A stretch of DNA of 64,000 bases from Candidatus Aminicenantes bacterium (GTDB lineage Bacteria > Acidobacteriota > Aminicenantia > UBA2199). This document shows, one piece after another, positions 55,082 through 64,000 of the stretch. Position 1 is the stretch's first letter. Every line of letters starts with the position of its first letter. Below the pieces are notes generated by a model. The model was not told the origin of the DNA, made no database searches, and was given only the letters and a program-made list of their open reading frames with translations. The stretch lies in contig DAOWCY010000012.1 in assembly GCA_030639305.1 (NCBI GenBank), forward strand, positions 954 through 64,953, in the 5' to 3' direction. Made by a program: the position numbers and the translations under genes.

Positions 55082-55639
55082 TTACGCGAAAATCTTCCCG
55101 AAATCGAAACGGATTTGGCAGGGGCCTAAGTCGAAAAACATCAGCCCATCTTTAAAATCTCCAGCCTGACTGTATTTCTCCTCTTGCAGTACAAAAACCG
55201 CGGCGCTGTCTGTTTTCGGGTCTACGATGCAGTAATATTGCACCACCGCGTTTTCGTAGAGTTGATATTTTATGATTTTATCTTTCCGGGAAGTTGCCGG
55301 GGAGAGAATTTCAAACACGATGACAGGGGTTGTTTCCAGTTTTTCTTCGCCGATATTTTCCGGCTCGCCGCAGACCACGATAACATCGGGTTGAACTACT
55401 GTGTCTTCGGTAATTTGCCAATCTACAGGCAGCAGCGCCTCGCATTTTTTACAATCTTTCAGCAATTCTCCCAGGTACTGGATTATTTTGCTGCTCAGGC
55501 GCTGGTGTTTTATCCTCGGCATAGGCACCATGGCAAAAGGTACGCCGCGGATCAATTCCCACCGTCCTTCCCAATGCGTATAATCATCATAGGTGTAATG
55601 TGGTAAGTCTTCTACTCTTAAAGCGACAGCGCTCATCAT
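55082..55639 (-). CDS. Uma2 (DUF820) family endonuclease
   Basis: WELIRG, VVQPDVIVVC, FEILSPAT...DKIIKYQLY. Confidence 0.93.
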   Translation of the reverse strand: MMSAVALRVEDLPHYTYDDYTHWEGRWELIRGVPFAMVPMPRIKHQRLSSKIIQYLGELLKDCKKCEALLPVDWQITEDTVVQPDVIVVCGEPENIGEEKLETTPVIVFEILSPATSRKDKIIKYQLYENAVVQYYCIVDPKTDSAAVFVLQEEKYSQAGDFKDGLMFFDLGPCQIRFDFGKIFA

Positions 55640-55657
55640 TTACTCCTTTTCCAGGTT

Positions 55658-55686
55658 ATTATGCCTGATTTCCTAAAAACTGTCAA
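55658..55686 (-). promoter_or_regulatory. Sigma70 promoter of the Uma2 gene
   Basis: TTGACA-N17-CATAAT, AGGAG RBS. Confidence 0.7.
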
Positions 55687-55892
55687 CCGGACCCCACTCG
55701 CGTGGGGGGGCAATTAGCTGCTTCGCAGCAGGTGGTGCTTTTGATTCTCGCTTCTAAAATTATCAAAAGTTTTGATCAAACTTTTACAAAAGTTTGGCCC
55801 CCGGCAGGGACCTTCCGCGCAACGGCTTACCGCCACCCCACGCGTGTGGGGCCGCCGGAGGCTCATAGGTTGGGTGCACTGCACCCCCCCCC
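55687..55892 (+). repeat. Repeat family B
   Basis: Same core as 54577-54780. Confidence 0.85.
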
Positions 55893-56109
55893 AGCGGTCT
55901 TCAGCGGCATTGTAATAAATAGAAAAAATCTCCCTGTTCCGGCACAAAACCCGGAAATAGTGAATTCTTTCGCGGTTTTGGGTAGACTCTTCGACCCGGC
56001 GTTCCAGTACTTTTTCTACGTGGTATTCTTTGTCCCGGTAACGAAAACTCAGGGGCGTCTCGTTTGCCCGGTATCCCGAATAGCAGGTTACTTCGATCTC
56101 TTGTGTCAT
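55714..56109 (-). CDS. Small conserved hypothetical protein (about 73 aa core) read through into repeat B
   Basis: YSGYRANETPLSF...YNAAEDRW, followed by a repeat-encoded tail. Confidence 0.65.
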   Translation of the reverse strand: MTQEIEVTCYSGYRANETPLSFRYRDKEYHVEKVLERRVEESTQNRERIHYFRVLCRNREIFSIYYNAAEDRWGGVQCTQPMSLRRPHTRGVAVSRCAEGPCRGPNFCKSLIKTFDNFRSENQKHHLLRSS

Positions 56110-56211
56110 GAAATTAACTTTATCTTGCCTCCGGCGGTGGGGGGGCTTTTTTAAAAAATCGCCCCCCTCAACCCCCCAAAAAACTTTTGTTTAATTTCAT
56201 GTGTTTGTGGA

Positions 56212-56517
56212 TCAAGGCAGGTCAAGGTCTTTAGTGATTTCGATATAATTTGCCCAGGGCATGGCCGGCCAGGTCTCCACCGCCAGGGCGCCCGAAGCCC
56301 GGGTAATCATGGAAACCTTTGCCGCCGTCTCATCGCCTGCGGCCTCATAAATATCCATAAAATCATAAGGTCCTAAGAGCCAATAGTGGCTTTTCCATTT
56401 TACATCGGGGCAGAGTTTGCTTACTTTTTTCTTCCACTCTTTGCCGATGGCTTCGCGTCTTTTAAGGTCTCCCGAAATTTCCGGGGTCAATCTTGTCATT
56501 AATACGTATAGTCCCAT
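56212..56517 (-). CDS. GYD-domain protein
   Basis: YWLLGPYDFMDIYEA...ETWPA; GAGG RBS; TTGAAA-N17-TATTAT promoter. Confidence 0.9.
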   Translation of the reverse strand: MGLYVLMTRLTPEISGDLKRREAIGKEWKKKVSKLCPDVKWKSHYWLLGPYDFMDIYEAAGDETAAKVSMITRASGALAVETWPAMPWANYIEITKDLDLP

Positions 56518-56563
56518 ATTTTACCTCGCTGTTTATATAATAGCCTAATTTGCAAAATTTTTC

Positions 56564-56692
56564 AACCCCGCGGCGCGGGGAACCTATAAGGGGCTATTTT
56601 CCGGGACGCGGCAGCCGAGTAGTTTCCATTATCGTCTATCCGGTTGGGAAAGCCGGTCGCTTGTAAGCCACAACCCCGCGGCGCGGGGAGCC
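56564..56692 (+). repeat. Two copies of palindrome CAACCCCGCGGCGCGGGG
   Basis: At about 56564 and 56671. Confidence 0.7.
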
Positions 56693-56840
56693 CAGGAGTG
56701 CGTCATTATCTTTAAACTTTCCTGGATTAATGCGGTTTTTGGGAGATTTGACAGAAATCCCGAAACCCTTGTTAATTCAGCGTTTTAACAAAATAATGAT
56801 GCGGCCCTGAGCGAAAACATCCTGATTTGGAAAAATCAGC

Positions 56841-57248
56841 CTATCCACTCCAATTTTCAATTTTTAGGTTCTCAATTCTTTTAAAATGCCTTTCATTGTT
56901 AGTAACCGATGTAAATTCATTAGAAATCGCTGTAGCCGCAATGAAAAGGTCTGAATCAGAAATAATTTGTTCTTTTGTCTTCAAGGCTGATTTTATTTCA
57001 CCAAAAGTCTTCCCGGTATTTTCATTAAAATCAACCACATTCGCCTCTTTTAGCAAATCGTTGATAAGTGATATATTTTCATCTTTTCGTGCGGAATTAT
57101 AAGCCCCAAAATAAAGTTCCGCGGCGGTGATGGAAGATAAAAAAATACGCTCATCATTAATTTTTTCAATTTTCTGATTAATTTTAGGGAATATATTTTT
57201 TAACCAATAGATAACGATGTCTGTGTCTAAATGATTATTTTTTTTCAT
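56841..57248 (-). CDS. vapC: VapC/PIN toxin
   Basis: LDTDIVI, SSITAAELYFG, DSDLFIAATA, VTNNERHF. Confidence 0.93.
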   Translation of the reverse strand: MKKNNHLDTDIVIYWLKNIFPKINQKIEKINDERIFLSSITAAELYFGAYNSARKDENISLINDLLKEANVVDFNENTGKTFGEIKSALKTKEQIISDSDLFIAATAISNEFTSVTNNERHFKRIENLKIENWSG

Positions 57249-57250
57249 TT

Positions 57251-57511
57251 TTAAAGGCAGACTTTTTCAGAGCGGACGTTTTTCTCTCTATCTGCCCTAA
57301 TTTCAGCGATAATCTCATCTGCATCACGCTCATCTTGCCATTTGCCGCAAAACCGGCTCAGGTGGTGTAGTCGAGGCTCATCAGTTAGGATAATGATCCT
57401 CCTTTTAGTAGGTTTTTTTTTCGATCTGGTTTTTATCTGTTTTATAACCTCCGGAGGCAATACAAGGTGCCCATCCGGCAGCAGTTCAGCTTCACAAGTA
57501 ATGGTTTTCAA
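57251..57511 (-). CDS. Cognate antitoxin of the VapC toxin
   Basis: Directly upstream of vapC; ends WQDERDADEIIAEIRADR. Confidence 0.75.
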   Translation of the reverse strand: MKTITCEAELLPDGHLVLPPEVIKQIKTRSKKKPTKRRIIILTDEPRLHHLSRFCGKWQDERDADEIIAEIRADREKNVRSEKVCL

Positions 57512-57745
57512 TGTAACCTCCTATTGAGCAATACTTAATGCCCTTTCCGGGCATACTCGATGCTCACATACAATTTTATAACAAACATTCTAATATTTCA
57601 ACAAAAAAATTAGAAAAATTAGCCTGCCTCCAAAAATTCCCATATAGGCGAAACGGTTGAGAAATAAGAAATGAGTTGACAGATTCGCTGTTTTCGGTTA
57701 TATTTAATTTGCAGTCGAAGTAAAAGGTTATGCGATAGACATGCT

Positions 57746-58204
57746 TTGAGACAAATGAATTTATTTTATGAATTTTTTAAAATCATCGAGCAGTTTGAAA
57801 AAATAGGATTACAATATGCTGTAGTCGGAGGTATCGCTATGGCATTTCACGATCAACCCAGGTTCACAAGAGACATAGATATTCTCGTGCTGCCGGAGGA
57901 CCTGGAAAAGATATGCAGTGTATTTGAGGATATAGGGTATTTTGAATCATCTGCTCCATGGACTTTTAAAAATACAAAGTTGACGCTGCATAGATTTATG
58001 AAAGTTGAAGGTAAGGATTTCCTGGTTGTAGATATTTTGATCGGTAACGAGGTAAAACATAGAGAGATAGTAAAAAATGCATTGTCTGAAATTCATGAGA
58101 AGGGGGTCGTTAAAATTGCCGCCAAGAACGACTTGATATGGATGAAAAAAATAAGGAATTCAGATCAAGATAAAGTTGACATTAAGAGGTTAGCAAATGA
58201 CTAG
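57746..58204 (+). CDS. Nucleotidyltransferase-family protein
   Basis: YAVVGGIAMAFH..PRFTRDIDIL...DLIWMK...DKVD; TTGACA-N17-TATATT upstream. Confidence 0.85.
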   Translation: MRQMNLFYEFFKIIEQFEKIGLQYAVVGGIAMAFHDQPRFTRDIDILVLPEDLEKICSVFEDIGYFESSAPWTFKNTKLTLHRFMKVEGKDFLVVDILIGNEVKHREIVKNALSEIHEKGVVKIAAKNDLIWMKKIRNSDQDKVDIKRLAND

Positions 58205-58331
58205 AATCGAGAAAGTCGTCAAAGATGTAAGCGATATGTTGGAATTTTATAAAAAAATAAAAAAAACCGGGAAGAAGGAAAAGAAACCTATCACCAAAGT
58301 AGGAAAACAACCGGCAGGGCAAAAATTTTAG
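58197..58331 (+). CDS. Small basic ORF (44 aa) coupled to the nucleotidyltransferase
   Basis: MTRIEKVVKDVSDMLEFYKKIKK...; overlaps the upstream stop; below the ORF-track cut-off. Confidence 0.45.
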   Translation: MTRIEKVVKDVSDMLEFYKKIKKTGKKEKKPITKVGKQPAGQKF

Positions 58332-58656
58332 CCGGTCATGAAATTAGCCACAGAGAACACCGAGGGCACAGAGCGGATGGCATCCGCAACCAAACACACC
58401 CCGTCGCTTCGTGAAAAAACAAGATTTTTCCCGATGAGTAGTACAGAAGGGGGCTTCTCACAGAAGAGAATCGGTACGGTTCCTGCCGCGAAGCGGCTAA
58501 TAGGGTGGGGACGGCGTCCCCCCGCGAAGCGGCTAAACGCACCCCCACACATGTGGGGCCACGAAGGCCGCGAAGTACACGAAGGGGGTAAAAACTTTTC
58601 TTGCCTGTCCCCAGTTTTTCCCTAAAATCATTGAAATGCATTTGCGCATTCCGGTT

Positions 58657-58872
58657 GTTCATGTGAACATTTTGATTTTGCACGTGCACATTTTCATTTT
58701 ACACATGAACATTCTCGAAGTGGACGTGAACATTCTCGATGTGTATATGAACGTTCTCAAGGTGCAGGTGAATATTTCCGATGTGCATCTACTTTTTTGA
58801 TTTGTTCACGTGTATTTTCGATTTATGCGCGTACTATTTGAAATTGTGCTGGTGAACACTGCCGATGTGCAC
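58657..58872. repeat. Degenerate 21-bp tandem repeat (about 10 units)
   Basis: GTGAACATT-like core recurring every 21 nt. Confidence 0.8.
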
Positions 58873-59083
58873 TTATTTTTTGGGGTATGACATTATTTGT
58901 CGTATCCTCTTTGCTATACTGTTATATGTATAAAAATAAATTGCTTCTTTTTTGCTTGTTTCAATTTGTTTTATGTATAGGAGGAAGTTGGCTTTGTAAG
59001 CACAACCTCCGTTTTTGGAGCCGTCTTACATTTAATACGGACAAACTTGATAGTGTTATTGTAAGATATATTTCAGTAAAATG

Positions 59084-59112
59084 TTGACATATAATCTGTT
59101 TTTTGTTAAAAT
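59084..59112 (+). promoter_or_regulatory. Candidate sigma70 promoter of the E2-E1-JAB operon
   Basis: TTGACA-N17-TAAAAT. Confidence 0.6.
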
Positions 59113-59249
59113 TTATTTGATGTTAAATAAAGAGCTAAATTATAAAAGAGAATGTTGGCGAGAGTTAAGGGTAGGTTTTTTTAATTGTTGGTACGAATAT
59201 CCAACAACCCCTAAAAAAGTTTGGATAGTGCGCGGAGGGGGAAATAAAG

Positions 59250-59963
59250 ATGAATGTTTTGAAAATTTTTAATGAATATGAGATAAAAGCGAGATACTTT
59301 CCTGCTATGTTGATTTCTATTCCTTTCTTGCTGAGTTTCGGTATGTTAAAAGGGACTGCATGGGTTCCCCTGATCGAGTCCACAAAAATTTTTCCGATAG
59401 CAGAATATGCAGGTTTTTCAGTCATTTTAGTTTTCTTTTTAGTTCAGGTGCAACGATTCATTGCAAAATTTTTTTTAGAGAAAAGAATTTTTGATAAAGA
59501 AGAACTGTTTCCTACTACTCAAATGCTTCTCTGGCAAGACAATAGATTATCAAAAGAAATGAAAGTGAAGATTAGAAAGAAAATTTTCGATGATTTCGAT
59601 ATATCTCTGTATAGCGAAAAAAAGGAGAGTAAGAATTTGAAAGAAGCAAGGCGATTAATAAAGGATATTATCCCTCTTATTAGACAGAAAATTGAAAAAG
59701 GACGACTTGTTCATCAGCATAACATTCAGTATGGATTTGCTCGAAACTTACTCGCTGGTACTTTAATAGCTATACCTGTTTCTCTGTTCAATATCTATCT
59801 TTCGTTGAAATCAAATGCAACGTTTGGCTTAATAATTTCAATAATAATTGTCGTTTTCTGTTTTGTTTTTTTTCTGGCGAGAAAACCAATTCTTAAAAAC
59901 CTTGCAGAAAACTACGCAGAATTTTTGTTGCGTGAATATTGTTATATAGGAGGTAAAAAATGA
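59250..59963 (+). CDS. Membrane protein (2+2 TM flanking a soluble helical core), candidate effector
   Basis: ARYFPA...PTTQML...NIQYGFARNL; ATGA coupling to the next gene. Confidence 0.75.
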   Translation: MNVLKIFNEYEIKARYFPAMLISIPFLLSFGMLKGTAWVPLIESTKIFPIAEYAGFSVILVFFLVQVQRFIAKFFLEKRIFDKEELFPTTQMLLWQDNRLSKEMKVKIRKKIFDDFDISLYSEKKESKNLKEARRLIKDIIPLIRQKIEKGRLVHQHNIQYGFARNLLAGTLIAIPVSLFNIYLSLKSNATFGLIISIIIVVFCFVFFLARKPILKNLAENYAEFLLREYCYIGGKK

Positions 59964-61132
59964 GTACATCAAAAATAATATTCTATCCGGTCAATAATGG
60001 TGCTATGGCTCTCTTGAAGCTAAATGATGATAAAGAGACAACAATAATGGTTGATATGAATATCCGTGAGGCAGCAGACGATGATGATGAGGATGAATAC
60101 GATGTGGCAAATCATCTTAGAAGTCAATTAAAAGAGGATGATTATGGTCGTCCCTATTTAGATGCTTTTGTTTTGTCACACAATGATGACGATCACATTA
60201 AAGGAATTCAGAATCACTTCCATTTGGGCAGTCTTGATGGCTATAAGGAACCGGAAGAGGGTGAAAAACCGAAAATTATTATCAATGAGATTTGGGCTAC
60301 TTCGAGATTTTGGAAACGGGCAAGTGATAGCAATAAGCTTTGTGATGATGCAAAAGCATTCAACCGGGAAATGAAAAGAAGGGTAAAAATTTTTGAAAAT
60401 ACAAAAAAAATACCAAATGCAAGTGATAGAGCATTGATTATCGGAGAAGACCCGGATGGCAAAACAGATGATCTAGATGATATTGTAATGGAAGTCGGAA
60501 GTTCATTTTCCGAAGTTAACCGACAGAATCTTTCAAAGAAAATACAAATAAAGATTTTAGGCCCACTATCTCAACAAAAAAATGAAGCTGATGAAGATTT
60601 CAATAAAAAAAATAGAGGCAGCGTAATCCTCCTTATTAAAATCAAAGAAAGTGGTTATGAAAATAAATTATTACTTCCAGGCGATGCGGAAGTTTTAGTT
60701 TGGGAATGTCTATGGGGAAAATATAAGAACAACATATCTAATCTTGAGTATGATATTCTATTAGCGCCTCACCATTGTTCATGGCATTCACTCTCATATG
60801 ATAGTCAGAGCCAATGCGATAATCCCGAAGTTTCCGAAGATGCAGAATCCGCACTAAGCCAGGCTAAAGAAGGAGCATATATTATTTCCAGCAGCAAACC
60901 AATCAAAAATAATGATGATGACCCCCCTTCATTTGCCGCGAAAAAGGAGTATTTAGTTATTGTTAAAAAAAAGCACTTCCTCTGCACTGAAGAATATCCA
61001 AAAGAAGGTGATGTCGAACCGATTGTATTGAAGCTTACTTCATTTGGCCCACAACTAAAAGGACAAAAGTCCAAATCAAGAATATCGCAGGCATCATCTG
61101 GCCCTGTTGGACAGGCGTTTGGACATGGTTGA
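59960..61132 (+). CDS. ComEC/Rec2-like metallo-beta-lactamase-fold hydrolase with C-terminal Gly
   Basis: MVDMN, LSHNDDDHIKG, PGDAE, APHHCS; tail ...SSGPVGQAFGHG*. Confidence 0.88.
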   Translation: MSTSKIIFYPVNNGAMALLKLNDDKETTIMVDMNIREAADDDDEDEYDVANHLRSQLKEDDYGRPYLDAFVLSHNDDDHIKGIQNHFHLGSLDGYKEPEEGEKPKIIINEIWATSRFWKRASDSNKLCDDAKAFNREMKRRVKIFENTKKIPNASDRALIIGEDPDGKTDDLDDIVMEVGSSFSEVNRQNLSKKIQIKILGPLSQQKNEADEDFNKKNRGSVILLIKIKESGYENKLLLPGDAEVLVWECLWGKYKNNISNLEYDILLAPHHCSWHSLSYDSQSQCDNPEVSEDAESALSQAKEGAYIISSSKPIKNNDDDPPSFAAKKEYLVIVKKKHFLCTEEYPKEGDVEPIVLKLTSFGPQLKGQKSKSRISQASSGPVGQAFGHG

Positions 61133-63200
61133 TGTTCCATATTGGATTTTTCTGGCAAATAGGTATGCGAATGAACATCCAGCTATTTTATCCGTTTCTG
61201 AAATTAAACATTTAGGGGACGAACACTACACCTTTACTGCTGAATTCAGGGTAAATCTCCCCGGTAAGTTTGATATTATAGGTCAAACGGAGAGAGGGGT
61301 TCGAAAAAAAGAACCAGTCAAATTTATTTTCCCCCCCTCTTTTCCCTATAAAGCACCTTTTATATATTTGAGAGATGACTTTTGTCGCAACTTTGCTCAC
61401 ATTAATCCATCTAAGGAAAAAGTTACCCCCTGTATTTTCTATGGGAATCTCAATGAGTTGTTACAGCAGCCGAAATGGTTTGATCATATATTGGATCAGA
61501 TGGCTGATTGGTTGGAAAAAGCAGCAGGAAATAATTTGATTGACTATAAACAGGGTTGGGAACCGATGAGGTCAGATGAATTAAAGGGAGAAATATTTTA
61601 TGATAAGGGTCTAATAGATAAAGAATCTGAAGCTCCCCCAGTTTTCTATAATAACTTCCCTGTATTTGCCTATGTCTTTCCGGTTCATTCCAAACTAAAA
61701 GAATTCGATAGTAATAAACATTCAACAATCTTAATTTTTAAGATGCCTATTGATAAAATATCTGATAATTATATTCCCAACTACATCAGTAAATTTAGCG
61801 ATTTATGTGAATTTGCCGAGCAAAACCATATCAATCATTTTAGAGACAGAGTGAACAGGGTGATAAAAAAACTAAAAAAATTGTTTGTTATTTTAGTGAT
61901 TCGACGACCTTCTCGGCTGATTAATTCGTCGTCTTGCCTGGAGGCTTTAAATTTTGGCATTAGAATAAAGAGGAATAGTAAAACTTCTAAGATTAAATCA
62001 AATTCAGAAGTCTACTTTTTATCTCATAGAGACGTTTGTAATCTGGAACTTTTAAATCGATTTTCCGGTAATCTAAAGAAACAACGATTTGATTGGATAT
62101 TTCAAATAGGATGTGGGAGTTTGGGATCGAAAATTTGTGTGCATTTAGCCCGAAACGGTAATAACAATTTTGTGGCTGTCGATAAGTCTAAGTTTTCTCC
62201 ACATAACAACGCCAGACATTCTCTTATCAATCGTGATATCAGAAATATAAACAAAGCATTTCTGTTAAAACATGAAATTGATAAAATGGGAATAAATGTA
62301 CGGAGATGCTCAAAGGATGTTCAATTCTTGGATTTTAGCAAATTCCCTCAATCTATTATTATCGACTCAACTGCAAATCTTGCTGTTAGAAACTATTTAT
62401 CGAGAAAGAGTATTCCATACCCAATTGTTCATACTTCACTTTACAATCATGGTAAACTTGCTATCTTGCTCGCAGAATCGTCTGAACGTAACCCAAGGCT
62501 TGATGACTTAATAGTATTCATTTTTTCAGAATGCTTGAGAAATAAATGTTTAAGGGAAAGTCTGCTGACTGAACAAGCCGTAAGAATGAGCACCGGTCAA
62601 GGTTGTGGTTCATTTACCACTGTTGTCCCCGATTCAAGAATATCTCTCGCAGCAGCCGGAATGTCAGCGAAGATTCAAACCTATATCAGCAGTGGAGTTC
62701 CAGAAAACGGGGAAGTGTTATATGGTGTTGTTGGTGACGATGATATGGGAATAAGATGGAATAAAATTAAGAATGGTAAAGTATTAGTGGTTGAACCCAA
62801 AGATAGTGAGTATGAAATCAGAGTGTTTCCAAAAATCGCTGAAATAATGGATAGCGAAGCCAAAAAACACTCTCCCAATGAAACCGGCGGAGTTTTAGTT
62901 GGCCATATTTCTTTGATAAATAAATGTATTACAATATCTGATTTAATACTAGCCCCAGAGGATAGCATAGAAACTCCAAACTATTTTGAATTAGGAACCA
63001 GTAATTTACTGAATAAAATAAAAGAGATAGAAAAAAAATCAAATACTCTGCTTACGTACCTGGGGACATGGCATAGTCACCCTCACGGAGGCGATGCGTC
63101 TAATTTAGATAAAGAAACAAAAAAGAAGATCAAAGAATTAAGGAATTATATGCCGACAGTTTGTCTGATTTGGACACAAAATGGATTATTGAGTGTATAG
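61125..63200 (+). CDS. Prokaryotic E2 - E1 (ThiF) - JAB triple fusion (Cap2/Cap3-like)
   Basis: E2: FPPSFPYKAP...HINP...TPC; E1: IGCGSLGS, VDK..FSPHNNARH, GQGCGS; JAB: ETGGVLVG, GTWHSHP...SNLD; 8-nt overlap with the MBL gene. Confidence 0.92.
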   Translation: MVDVPYWIFLANRYANEHPAILSVSEIKHLGDEHYTFTAEFRVNLPGKFDIIGQTERGVRKKEPVKFIFPPSFPYKAPFIYLRDDFCRNFAHINPSKEKVTPCIFYGNLNELLQQPKWFDHILDQMADWLEKAAGNNLIDYKQGWEPMRSDELKGEIFYDKGLIDKESEAPPVFYNNFPVFAYVFPVHSKLKEFDSNKHSTILIFKMPIDKISDNYIPNYISKFSDLCEFAEQNHINHFRDRVNRVIKKLKKLFVILVIRRPSRLINSSSCLEALNFGIRIKRNSKTSKIKSNSEVYFLSHRDVCNLELLNRFSGNLKKQRFDWIFQIGCGSLGSKICVHLARNGNNNFVAVDKSKFSPHNNARHSLINRDIRNINKAFLLKHEIDKMGINVRRCSKDVQFLDFSKFPQSIIIDSTANLAVRNYLSRKSIPYPIVHTSLYNHGKLAILLAESSERNPRLDDLIVFIFSECLRNKCLRESLLTEQAVRMSTGQGCGSFTTVVPDSRISLAAAGMSAKIQTYISSGVPENGEVLYGVVGDDDMGIRWNKIKNGKVLVVEPKDSEYEIRVFPKIAEIMDSEAKKHSPNETGGVLVGHISLINKCITISDLILAPEDSIETPNYFELGTSNLLNKIKEIEKKSNTLLTYLGTWHSHPHGGDASNLDKETKKKIKELRNYMPTVCLIWTQNGLLSV

Positions 63201-63366
63201 GGTGGCGTAGATAACAGAGTTGAGAGAAATTGCTTTGAAATTTGGATTTTCCTTAAAATGTTTCGGGTACGGCGGCCCATTTTTATCTATATTGTATATA
63301 ATTATATCACTAAAGAATATGTACACAGAATACTTGACACTACCTATAAAAATCGGGGACAACACT

Positions 63367-63512
63367 CGATCTTCGGAGCATCAAAATCGGTCTTCTGAGC
63401 ATCGACGAAGGGCTTCTGATCAACGACAATCTTCCGACCATCGTCGTCGATCTTCCAACCATCAGCACCGATCTTAAAACCTTCAAACACGATCTTCTGA
63501 GCATCGACAACA
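63367..63512. repeat. Degenerate 21-bp tandem repeat (7 units, one of 18 bp)
   Basis: GATCTTC-like core at 63368, 63389, 63410, 63428, 63449, 63470 and 63491. Confidence 0.8.
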
Positions 63513-63885
63513 GGAAAAGAGGGACGGTGGAAGGAAAAGAAGAAGTGTTGGGGGCTCGGGGGCAATGGGGGGAGGTAAATCTCGAAATTCGACTCCGGCT
63601 GGGGCAGCAATCTTCGAAAGATTTGAGATTTGGGAACGGTGTATGTAAGTGTGTAAATGGTTCATCGGGTAGTGCCGGAAAGGGGACAGGCCAGGAACGT
63701 TTTTTTCATTTGTTTGTAATGTGGGATTTGTAATTTGTTATTTCCCGGCAAGCCGGGCTCTTTTTGGTTCCGGCTTGACCGGGTTGTGGGGCCGGTTTTT
63801 TTTATTCGCTATTGTTGGCAGGATTATTTTTTTATGTATAATATTAATGGGCTACAATGTGGCCACACAAAGCAGGAGGTGAACT

Positions 63886-64000
63886 ATGGCCGACAGTATA
63901 GTTCGTTCCAGGATCGATCCTGTAGTTAAGGACGAAGCGAACCGGATTCTGAAAAGTATGGGACTGACTTTAAGTGAAGGGATAAGACTTTTTTTACACC
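63886..64000 (+). CDS. dinJ: RelB/DinJ antitoxin, truncated by the window edge
   Basis: CAGGAGG RBS; MADSIVRSRIDPVVKDEANRILKSMGLTLSEGIRLFL. Confidence 0.88.
   Translation, partial: MADSIVRSRIDPVVKDEANRILKSMGLTLSEGIRLFLH

What the first reader, a model, noticed from the sequence alone, without database searches (positions are those of the whole stretch)
61050..61132. The MBL ends in a flexible tail with a terminal glycine (...SQASSGPVGQAFGHG*), as expected for an E1 substrate
Seen: after the MBL fold comes a low-complexity K/S/Q/G linker that stops exactly at Gly, and the tail codons overlap the start of the E2-E1-JAB gene. Known: E1 enzymes adenylate C-terminal small residues (Gly in Ubls; Gly/Ala in CD-NTases), and JABs cleave after them. 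Inferred: the nuclease/hydrolase itself acts as the ubiquitin-like modifier and may be primed or localised by conjugation.
Basis: partly seen in the sequence, partly recalled or inferred. Interest (0 to 1): 0.72.

Follow-up and report, generated by a model that had tools for sequence, protein, structure and literature searches.

The report
Glycine-ended conjugation tail of 6A-MBL enzyme
A nuclease-like enzyme in a known bacterial anti-phage operon (6A-MBL) ends in a floppy tail with an invariant His-Gly, which the neighbouring ubiquitin-type E2-E1-JAB enzyme most likely uses to attach the enzyme itself to targets; this idea is already the field's working model.

Summary
ORF 59960-61132 (390 aa) ends ...SQASSGPVGQAFGHG*. 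Its last ~20 residues are predicted disordered. Its stop overlaps the ATG (61125) of an E2-E1-JAB fusion whose catalytic residues are all intact.

- His389 and Gly390 are invariant while the linker before them varies.
- 207 of 214 full-length relatives carry [H/Y/F/W]-[G/A] at the end, or followed by 1-8 removable residues.
- All 80 genomic relatives have E2-E1 plus JAB directly downstream.
- The tail motif changes with the E1 lineage: HG or RAG with fused E2-E1-JAB, Tyr/Phe-Ala with split Cap2/Cap3-like genes.
- Relatives that carry an AGS-C domain instead of the tail have no E2-E1-JAB where DNA downstream is available.
- Codon usage (CAT 31, CAC 23, all four Gly codons) rules out the overlapping start codon as the cause.
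- The E2-E1 part is structurally closest to Cap2, which adenylates the C-terminus of its cyclase.

The operon is type 6a of Iyer et al. 2006, now named 6A-MBL and counted among phage defences. A 2024 preprint already says MBL pathways conjugate their enzyme. This is a new member of a known kind. Conjugation is inferred here, not shown.

The parts
59084..59112 (+). Promoter-like site (TTGACA-17-TAAAAT, with TG) about 140 nt upstream of the first gene
   Evidence: 11 of 12 matches, the best in the region. This is a consensus match only.
59250..59963 (+). First gene: 237-aa membrane protein, translationally coupled to the MBL gene by an ATGA overlap, with GGAGG 8 nt before the MBL ATG
   Evidence: hydrophobic segments at about 53-72, 166-186 and 190-210, plus a weaker one at 16-33. 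No Pfam family reaches its threshold. Homologues lie within 4 kb of the MBL gene in 50 of 80 loci and in loci L081 and L084.
59960..61132 (+). MBL-fold hydrolase, 390 aa; the closest solved fold is the ComEC beta-lactamase-like (nuclease) domain
   Evidence: PADLOC MBL models RTasMBL, LmuA, PDC-M48B and Avs1a match. AF2 pLDDT is 86.4. Foldseek finds 9ic4 at E 1.8e-11, TM 0.69. Invariant residues include H74, D78, H79, D242, H271 and H272.
61046..61129 (+). C-terminal tail, residues 363-390 (GPQLKGQKSKSRISQASSGPVGQAFGHG). It has a conserved GPQ + Lys-rich start, a variable Ser/Ala linker and an invariant His-Gly end.
   Evidence: pLDDT is below 50 for residues 371-390.
61124..61129 (+). His389-Gly390 codons (CAT GGT). 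Gly390 is the predicted site of adenylation, thioester formation and conjugation. The ATG of the next gene lies inside CATGG.
61125..63200 (+). E2-E1-JAB triple fusion, 691 aa from ATG 61125. The E2 domain is about residues 1-160 (H92, C103). A linker follows. The E1 adenylation domain is about residues 320-525 (G329xG331xxG334, D353, R364, K377, crossover-loop C494). The JAB domain is about residues 557-691 (E586, H650xH652, S659, D662).
   Evidence: Pfam; PADLOC CBASS E1-E2 and JAB models; conservation in 61 and 28 homologues; PDB profile hit to Cap2; AF2 pLDDT 87.2; Foldseek 7to3_A Cap2 at E 2.6e-21 over 617 columns.

Best explanation
The three genes 59250-63200 are a diverged member of the 6A-MBL anti-phage system, a Cap2/Cap3-type conjugation pathway that has an MBL-fold enzyme where type II CBASS has its cyclase. 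There is no separate ubiquitin-like protein. The MBL enzyme's own disordered tail of roughly 20-28 residues is the handle.

Proposed steps, all inferred by homology to Cap2-CD-NTase:
1. The tail threads into the E1 adenylation site of the (probably dimeric) E2-E1-JAB protein.
2. The carboxylate of Gly390 is adenylated with ATP.
3. It passes as a thioester to the crossover-loop Cys494, then to the E2 Cys103.
4. It is ligated to an amine on a target that is not yet known.

The fused JAB metallopeptidase reverses the conjugate. In relatives whose tail continues 1-8 residues past the Gly, JAB would first trim the precursor. In this window the Gly is already terminal, so no trimming is needed. The penultimate His (Tyr, Phe or Trp in other lineages) is probably the specificity determinant read by E1 and/or JAB. 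Conjugation would prime or position the MBL enzyme, which is most likely a metal-dependent DNase given its ComEC-like fold and the DNase activity of another defence MBL.
For: - The tail exists, is low complexity and is predicted disordered.
- H389 and G390 are invariant against a variable linker. Of the best 120 homologues, 106 end in HG and 14 in HG plus an extension. Of 214 full-length family members, 207 carry [HYFW][GA] within the last 14 residues, 159 of them exactly at the end.
- All 80 genomic loci have E2-E1 plus JAB immediately downstream. 76 are detectable by tblastn with the window's protein. The other 4 have a Prok-E2_B+ThiF gene followed by a separate Prok-JAB gene in the two checked, L028 and L074.
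- The tail class follows the E1 lineage. HG goes with the window-type fusion. RAG goes with a diverged Prok-E2_A fusion. RYA/GFA goes with the four loci that lack the fusion, two of them checked as split Cap2/Cap3-like. TYG goes with a 779-aa fusion.
- Natural negative control: MBL relatives P0122 and P0138 have an AGS-C domain in place of the tail. In L084 the MBL is followed by 261-aa and 286-aa genes, not by an E2-E1-JAB.
- His is encoded by CAT 31 times and CAC 23 times, and all four Gly codons are used, so selection acts on the amino acids.
- The catalytic residues of E2, E1 and JAB are at least 95% conserved in 61 homologues.
- The E2-E1 part is closest to Cap2 by profile (7tsq, 7tsx, 7to3, E about 1e-15) and by fold (7to3_A E 2.6e-21; E1 domain TM about 0.8 to Cap2 bound to the CdnD02 C-terminus).
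- Precedent: Cap2 forms a thioester with the terminal Gly of cGAS. Terminal Gly/Ala is conserved only in operons that have Cap2 and Cap3 (PMC10097602).
[quoted passage not shown] 6A-MBL is listed as a phage defence system.
Against: - Nothing here shows a conjugate, an adenylate or a thioester. All evidence is comparative or predicted.
- I could not model an E1-tail complex with the tools available.
- The target is unknown.
- The primary paper on 6A-MBL (van den Berg 2024) and the final Ledvina 2023 paper were not readable here, so I cannot say whether MBL conjugation has been shown at the bench.
- The MBL substrate is not established. No Pfam MBL model reaches threshold. The window's clade has HxDxDH rather than the canonical HxHxDH motif.
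- The 214-protein census is weighted towards close relatives.
Confidence: 0.8

Rival explanations
1. The tail is a non-covalent docking or regulatory peptide. It binds E2-E1-JAB, or is clipped by JAB, but is never adenylated or ligated. The E1-E2 activities act on some other substrate.
For: Co-variation of tail and partner shows a specific interaction, not its chemistry. Extensions after the Gly show only that a protease probably cuts there.
Against: The operon has no other candidate substrate and no beta-grasp gene. The conserved position is the very C-terminus and holds a small residue, which is exactly what E1 adenylation requires. The closest solved relative, Cap2, was captured with its partner's C-terminus in the E1 site in the AMP state (entry titles of 7tsq/7tsx; PMC10097602). 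The E1 and E2 cysteines are conserved.
Confidence: 0.09
2. The terminal His-Gly is an autoinhibitory plug. The His side chain and the free carboxylate would fold back onto the MBL metal site, and the E1 partner or JAB would simply release it.
For: His is a metal ligand. Another defence MBL is autoinhibited by inserted loops and is activated by proteolysis (10.1101/2025.09.03.673762).
Against: AF2 does not dock the tail; pLDDT is about 32-34 for the last 20 residues. Other lineages have Tyr, Phe or Trp, or Arg-Ala-Gly, in place of His. These are not metal ligands, yet they keep the terminal Gly/Ala rule.
Confidence: 0.05
3. HG* is conserved at the nucleotide level because CAT-GGN-TGA contains the ATG start of the downstream gene (translational coupling), not because of the protein's C-terminus.
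For: In the window and in several close relatives, the ATG inside CATGG is the start nearest to the one implied by homology.
Against: Among 54 distinct HG loci, the His codon is CAC (no ATG possible) in 23. All four Gly codons occur. Many loci have a gap of 2-160 nt, or an extension such as HGAS, between the Gly and the next gene.
Confidence: 0.02
4. The MBL is the acceptor (target) rather than the donor. The conserved Lys-rich start of the tail (K367, K370, K372) would be modified by something else.
For: K367, K370 and K372 are each conserved in 26-28 of 33 relatives. Self-conjugation is known for other bacterial Ubls (PMC10557695).
Against: No donor protein is encoded. This does not explain the invariant terminal Gly. 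It could hold in addition to the best explanation (MBL-to-MBL chains) rather than instead of it.
Confidence: 0.04

Closest known systems
6A-MBL anti-phage system: operon type 6a of Iyer, Burroughs and Aravind 2006 (PMC1779556), named 6A-MBL after van den Berg et al. 2024 (cited in PMC13276650 and 10.1101/2025.09.30.679545)
   Same: A triple-module E2-E1-JAB polypeptide sits next to a specialised MBL-fold gene, with no Ubl gene. The MBL is 43-45% identical, and the fusion about 30% identical, to the widespread proteobacterial form (for example L037, L064).
   Different: Here a membrane-protein gene leads the operon and is translationally coupled to the MBL gene. In the proteobacterial form its homologue is transcribed divergently with a WYL regulator, and a second MBL paralogue follows the fusion. 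Here the Gly is already terminal (HG*), whereas that form has HG+AS and similar extensions. The metal motif is HxDxDH instead of HxHxDH.
Type II CBASS Cap2/Cap3 with CD-NTase (PDB 7to3, 7tqd, 7tsq, 7tsx; PMC10097602)
   Same: Cap2 is the best hit for the E2-linker-E1 architecture by sequence profile and by fold. A JAB peptidase is present. The partner enzyme ends in a conserved Gly/Ala only when Cap2 and Cap3 are present, which parallels the MBL family.
   Different: There is no CD-NTase and no cyclic-nucleotide effector. The conjugated enzyme is an MBL hydrolase. JAB is fused to E2-E1. The E2 domain is Pfam Prok-E2_A, not the Prok-E2_B found in the split Cap2-like partners of some MBLs.
ATG7 with ATG8/ATG12 (eukaryotic non-canonical E1 and its substrates)
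   Same: Cap2-type E1s resemble ATG7 (10.1101/2022.03.31.486616; ATG7 hits). From my own knowledge, not tested here: ATG8-family proteins and ATG12 end in an aromatic residue followed by Gly, often with a short extension that a protease removes. This is the same pattern as the MBL tails ([H/Y/F/W]-G plus 0-8 residues).
   Different: The modifier here is a 390-aa enzyme, not a beta-grasp Ubl. The processing protease is a JAB metallopeptidase, not an Atg4 cysteine protease. The target is unknown.
Defence-associated MBL effectors (trypsin-MBL modules of Hachiman, pAgo and Avs; 10.1101/2025.09.03.673762)
   Same: These are MBL-fold proteins in phage-defence operons. PADLOC models Avs1a, LmuA and RTasMBL match the window's MBL. 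In that system the MBL is an autoinhibited DNase switched on by a partner enzyme.
   Different: Activation there is by proteolytic cleavage of inserted loops. Here the partner is an E1-E2 ligase acting on the C-terminus.

Membership tests
6A-MBL / type 6a operon | [quoted passage not shown] | tested here: met
   Pfam finds Prok-E2_A at 38-159, ThiF at 325-431 and Prok-JAB at 577-657. The AF2 model and the full-length Cap2 fold match agree.
6A-MBL / type 6a operon | An adjacent gene for a specialised metallo-beta-lactamase-fold protein | tested here: met
   PADLOC MBL models match. The AF2 fold matches ComEC-MBL and other MBL structures. The MBL stop overlaps the start of the fusion gene.
6A-MBL / type 6a operon | No separate ubiquitin-like (beta-grasp) gene in the operon | tested here: met
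   Only three co-directional ORFs lie between the promoter-like site and position 63200. The third is a membrane protein. Its fold was not modelled.
6A-MBL / type 6a operon | Protects against phage | not testable with these tools
   Defence is reported for the P. aeruginosa system (second-hand: PMC13276650; 10.1101/2025.09.30.679545). The primary paper is not held.
Type II CBASS | A CD-NTase (cGAS/DncV-like cyclase) as the conjugated signalling enzyme | tested here: not met
   No nucleotidyltransferase is in the operon; the slot is filled by an MBL. So this is not CBASS, though it works like the Cap2/Cap3 module.
Type II CBASS | A Cap2-like E2-E1 with ATP-binding motif, crossover-loop Cys and E2 Cys, plus a Cap3-like JAB | tested here: met
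   G329/G331/G334, D353, R364, K377, C494, H92, C103, E586, H650, H652, S659 and D662 are conserved. Cap2 is the top hit.
E1 substrates (Ubl-like modifiers, including CD-NTases) | An accessible C-terminus ending in Gly (or Ala), conserved only where the E1 partner is present | tested here: met
   The negative control is the AGS-C variant without an E1 partner.
E1 substrates (Ubl-like modifiers, including CD-NTases) | Covalent adenylate, thioester or conjugate formed through that residue | not testable with these tools
   This needs biochemistry or mass spectrometry.
Ubiquitin-like beta-grasp proteins | A beta-grasp fold | tested here: not met
   The AF2 model is an MBL sandwich of about 365 residues plus a tail.

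The most novel reading that the evidence does not exclude
The conserved core may be the MBL enzyme plus the small membrane protein, not a ligase plus a nuclease. Homologues of the window's membrane protein sit next to the MBL gene in every tail class (HG, RAG, Tyr-Ala, Tyr-Gly). They also sit next to the AGS-C-fused MBL that has no E1 partner. The MBL therefore carries the two regulatory add-ons typical of CBASS/Pycsar signal-generating enzymes: a Cap2/Cap3-targeted tail or an AGS-C domain. The MBL may then be the sensor or signal-generating enzyme, and the membrane protein the effector or the conjugation target. The aromatic/His-Gly end, read by an ATG7-like E1, could even anchor the enzyme to the membrane protein or to a lipid, as Atg8 is anchored.
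Probability: 0.15. Interest if true: 0.65.

Novelty: new member of a known kind. Interest (0 to 1): 0.3.

Why it matters
If the tail is the conjugation handle, this operon is another case where bacteria attach a whole enzyme, rather than a small ubiquitin-like protein, to targets using ATG7/ubiquitin-type chemistry. The family offers natural variation for working out how Cap2-type E1s choose their substrates:
- several tail motifs that co-vary with E1 lineages;
- precursor forms that would need JAB trimming;
- a variant with an AGS-C domain and no tail or E1 partner.

For this scan the practical result is that the finding is real, but it belongs to an already named defence system whose working model already includes this idea.

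Tried and rejected
- phmmer of the single E2-E1-JAB sequence against the PDB found only MccB and one peptidase. A 28-sequence profile was needed to reach Cap2.
- Pfam gives no hit for the MBL. PADLOC and the predicted fold were needed.
- The primary 6A-MBL paper and the final Ledvina paper are not held. No paper in the library shows MBL conjugation directly.
- The idea that HG is conserved because of the overlapping ATG was tested and rejected by codon usage and by non-overlapping loci.
- P0161, an apparent 1166-aa MBL-E2-E1-JAB fusion, looks from its sequence like a frame error in a GC-rich contig, so I did not use it.
- The contig holding P0122 (MBL with AGS-C) is too short to judge its neighbours. 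P0138 in locus L084 was used instead.

Full report
**1. Observation**

The + strand ORF 59960..61132 encodes a 390-aa protein ending ...LKGQKSKSRISQASSGPVGQAFGHG*. The codons are CAT (His389, 61124-61126), GGT (Gly390, 61127-61129) and TGA (61130-61132). The next ORF begins at ATG 61125, inside CATGG, giving an 8-nt overlap. A TTG at 61107 is also possible, but homologues align from residue 2-6 of the ATG form.

The 28 residues after the conserved G363-P364-Q365 are rich in Gly, Ser, Gln and Lys. An AlphaFold2 model built on 33 relatives is confident for the body (mean pLDDT 86.4, pTM 0.88). Its pLDDT falls below 50 for residues 371-390.

**2. What the genes are**

- **The downstream protein.** It is 691 aa and carries Pfam Prok-E2_A, ThiF and Prok-JAB in that order. 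It also matches the CBASS E1-E2 and JAB models of PADLOC.
- **Its catalytic residues.** In 61 distinct homologues the following are at least 95% conserved (also invariant in the 28-sequence alignment):
  - E2: H92 and C103.
  - E1 nucleotide site: G329, G331, G334, D353, R364, K377.
  - E1 crossover loop: C494.
  - JAB: E586, H650, H652, S659, D662.
- **Its closest solved relative.** A profile of the family finds Cap2 as the best solved relative (7tsq, 7tsx, 7to3, E about 1e-15). The AF2 model (pLDDT 87.2) matches full-length E. cloacae Cap2 over 617 columns (7to3_A, E 2.6e-21). Its E1 domain matches Cap2 bound to the CdnD02 C-terminus with TM about 0.8.
- **The MBL.** It has no Pfam hit but matches the defence-associated MBL models RTasMBL, LmuA, PDC-M48B and Avs1a. 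Its model is closest to the beta-lactamase-like domain of ComEC (9ic4, E 1.8e-11). ComEC's MBL domain is, from my own knowledge, a DNA nuclease. A different defence MBL has been shown to be an autoinhibited DNase (10.1101/2025.09.03.673762). So "nuclease" is a reasonable reading but remains untested.
- **The first gene.** ORF 59250-59963 encodes a 237-aa membrane protein coupled to the MBL gene by an ATGA overlap with a GGAGG ribosome-binding site. A strong promoter-like site lies at 59084-59112.

**3. Is the tail an E1 substrate? Comparative tests**

*(a) Conservation.* H389 and G390 are invariant in 33 relatives at 51-77% identity, while the majority residue in tail columns 366-388 is held by only 9-28 of 33 sequences. 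Of the 120 best database homologues, 106 end exactly in HG and the other 14 have HG followed by 1-10 residues.

An exhaustive HMMER search of cluster representatives found 605 relatives. Pooling all full-length proteins collected gives 214. Of these, 207 carry [H/Y/F/W]-[G/A] within the last 14 residues: HG 151, YG 35, YA 12, FG 8, WG 1. The motif is exactly terminal in 159, and the rest carry 1-8 extra residues. Most of the seven exceptions still end in, or close to, a small residue (RAG plus extension, RLG, PVG).

*(b) Linkage.* All 80 loci retrieved from reference genomes have the ligase machinery immediately downstream. 76 have a homologue of the window's fusion that tblastn can detect. 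The other four are Acidobacteria; the two I checked have a Prok-E2_B+ThiF gene followed by a separate Prok-JAB gene, a split Cap2/Cap3-like pair.

*(c) Co-variation between tail motif and ligase partner.*

| Tail motif | Ligase partner | Loci |
|---|---|---|
| HG | window-type fusion | most of the 80 |
| ...PRAG or AHKAG, with or without extension | diverged lineage, same Prok-E2_A/ThiF/JAB architecture | L021, L024, L026, L042, L075 |
| ...RYA or ...GFA | no window-type fusion; split Cap2/Cap3-like pair in the two checked (L028, L074) | 4 Acidobacteria |
| ...TYG | 779-aa fusion | L081 |

*(d) Natural negative control.* Relatives P0122 and P0138 have an AGS-C domain in place of the tail. In locus L084 this form is followed by two small genes and no E2-E1-JAB.

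*(e) A confounder excluded.* The ATG of the next gene lies inside the His-Gly codons, so the motif might be held at the DNA level. Among 54 distinct HG loci, His is CAC (no ATG possible) in 23 and CAT in 31. All four Gly codons occur. Many loci have a gap or an extension before the next gene. Selection is therefore on the protein.

This is the same pattern that led to the Cap2 mechanism. There, terminal Gly/Ala is conserved in CD-NTases only when Cap2 and Cap3 are present, and that Gly forms the thioester and the conjugate (PMC10097602).

**4. Most likely mechanism**

- Shown by sequence or prediction: an exposed, disordered tail ending in an invariant His-Gly; a Cap2-like E2-E1 with intact ATP site and both cysteines; an intact JAB.
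- Inferred by homology: the tail enters the E1 site. Gly390 is adenylated, passed to Cys494 and then to Cys103, and ligated to an amine on an unknown target. JAB deconjugates. In relatives with extensions such as HGAS or HGTR, JAB would first expose the Gly.
- Inferred more weakly: conjugation primes or positions a DNase.

I put the odds that the tail is the E1 substrate at about 0.8. The rivals are a docking-only peptide, a metal-site plug, a start-codon constraint, and the MBL as acceptor. They are listed with their tests. The start-codon rival was tested and rejected.

**5. Comparison with what is known**

[quoted passage not shown] It is now called 6A-MBL and is listed among phage defence systems, including defences against jumbo phages in P. 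aeruginosa (PMC13276650; 10.1101/2025.09.30.679545). I could not read the primary 6A-MBL paper or the final Cap2 paper, so I cannot say whether MBL conjugation has been shown experimentally.

The locus fails the defining feature of CBASS because it has no CD-NTase, but it works like the Cap2/Cap3 module. From my own knowledge, ATG7's substrates (the ATG8 family and ATG12) end in an aromatic residue followed by Gly, often with a cleavable extension. That is the pattern seen in these tails.

**6. What is particular here**

- The window's clade places the membrane-protein gene first in the operon. In the widespread proteobacterial form its homologue (E 3e-13) is divergent and paired with a WYL regulator, and a second MBL paralogue follows the fusion.
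- Homologues of the membrane protein occur within 4 kb in 50 of 80 loci, in all tail classes, and next to the AGS-C-fused MBL that lacks an E1 partner. This suggests an MBL + membrane-protein core with interchangeable regulatory modules. I give that as the boldest reading, at low odds.
- The operon is AT-rich (GC 0.32-0.37) against about 0.50 upstream, and it lies among toxin-antitoxin-type genes. That fits a mobile defence island.

**7. Verdict**

The system and the idea are already known, so this is a new member of a known kind with modest interest. Earlier notes of this scan on other genomes reached the same reading. They are not independent evidence, and I re-derived each point here.

Noticed in passing
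window 59250-59963; L037 2211-2996 (-); L081 7473-8165; L084 2753-3538: The 237-aa membrane protein has homologues near the MBL gene in 50 of 80 loci, in every tail class. It also has one directly after the AGS-C-fused MBL that lacks an E2-E1-JAB. It may be a core partner (effector or target) of this MBL family.
   Followed up: partly
P0122, P0138; L084 1229-2743: Some MBL relatives carry a C-terminal AGS-C domain (Pfam PF18134, otherwise known on CD-NTases and cyclases) where the disordered tail would be. Where context is available (L084), no E2-E1-JAB follows.
   Followed up: partly
window 58663-58787 and about 63360-63500: Two arrays with a 21-nt period flank the operon (units roughly GTGAACATTCTCGATGTGCAC and CGATCTTCNGAGCATCNAC). 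They are not obviously related to each other, and their function is unknown.
   Followed up: no
window 56500-63500: GC falls from about 0.50 to 0.32-0.38 across the operon and its upstream neighbours, suggesting a horizontally acquired island.
   Followed up: no
window 55085-58204 and 63867-64000: The neighbours are typical of a mobile or defence island: a Uma2 endonuclease-like gene, a GYD-domain gene, a PIN (VapC-like) gene followed by a small ORF (possible antitoxin), and an AbiEii/MNT-like nucleotidyltransferase. A further ORF starts at 63867 and runs off the window end; from memory its first residues look like a RelB/DinJ-type antitoxin (not searched).
   Followed up: partly
window 61124-61132; L001, L003, L004, L005, L007, L009, L011, L069: The same 8-nt overlap recurs in close relatives, with the downstream ATG lying inside the CAT-GGN His-Gly codons. 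It is absent where His is CAC, so it looks like an opportunistic use of the conserved motif for translational coupling.
   Followed up: yes
L037 3006-3905 (-), 7441-8553 (+); L081 2311-3194 (-), 3534-3998 (+): Other 6A-MBL loci carry known immune-operon regulators: a WYL protein, or an HTH plus Peptidase_M78 pair like CapH/CapP. They also carry extra genes, namely a second MBL paralogue or an LRAT/NlpC-like protein. None of these is seen in the window.
   Followed up: partly
window 60179-60196 (residues 74-79): The metal motif is H-N-D-D-D-H (HxDxDH) in the window's clade, whereas more distant relatives have the canonical HxHxDH. No invariant 'motif 3' histidine is obvious between residues 79 and 271.
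   Followed up: no
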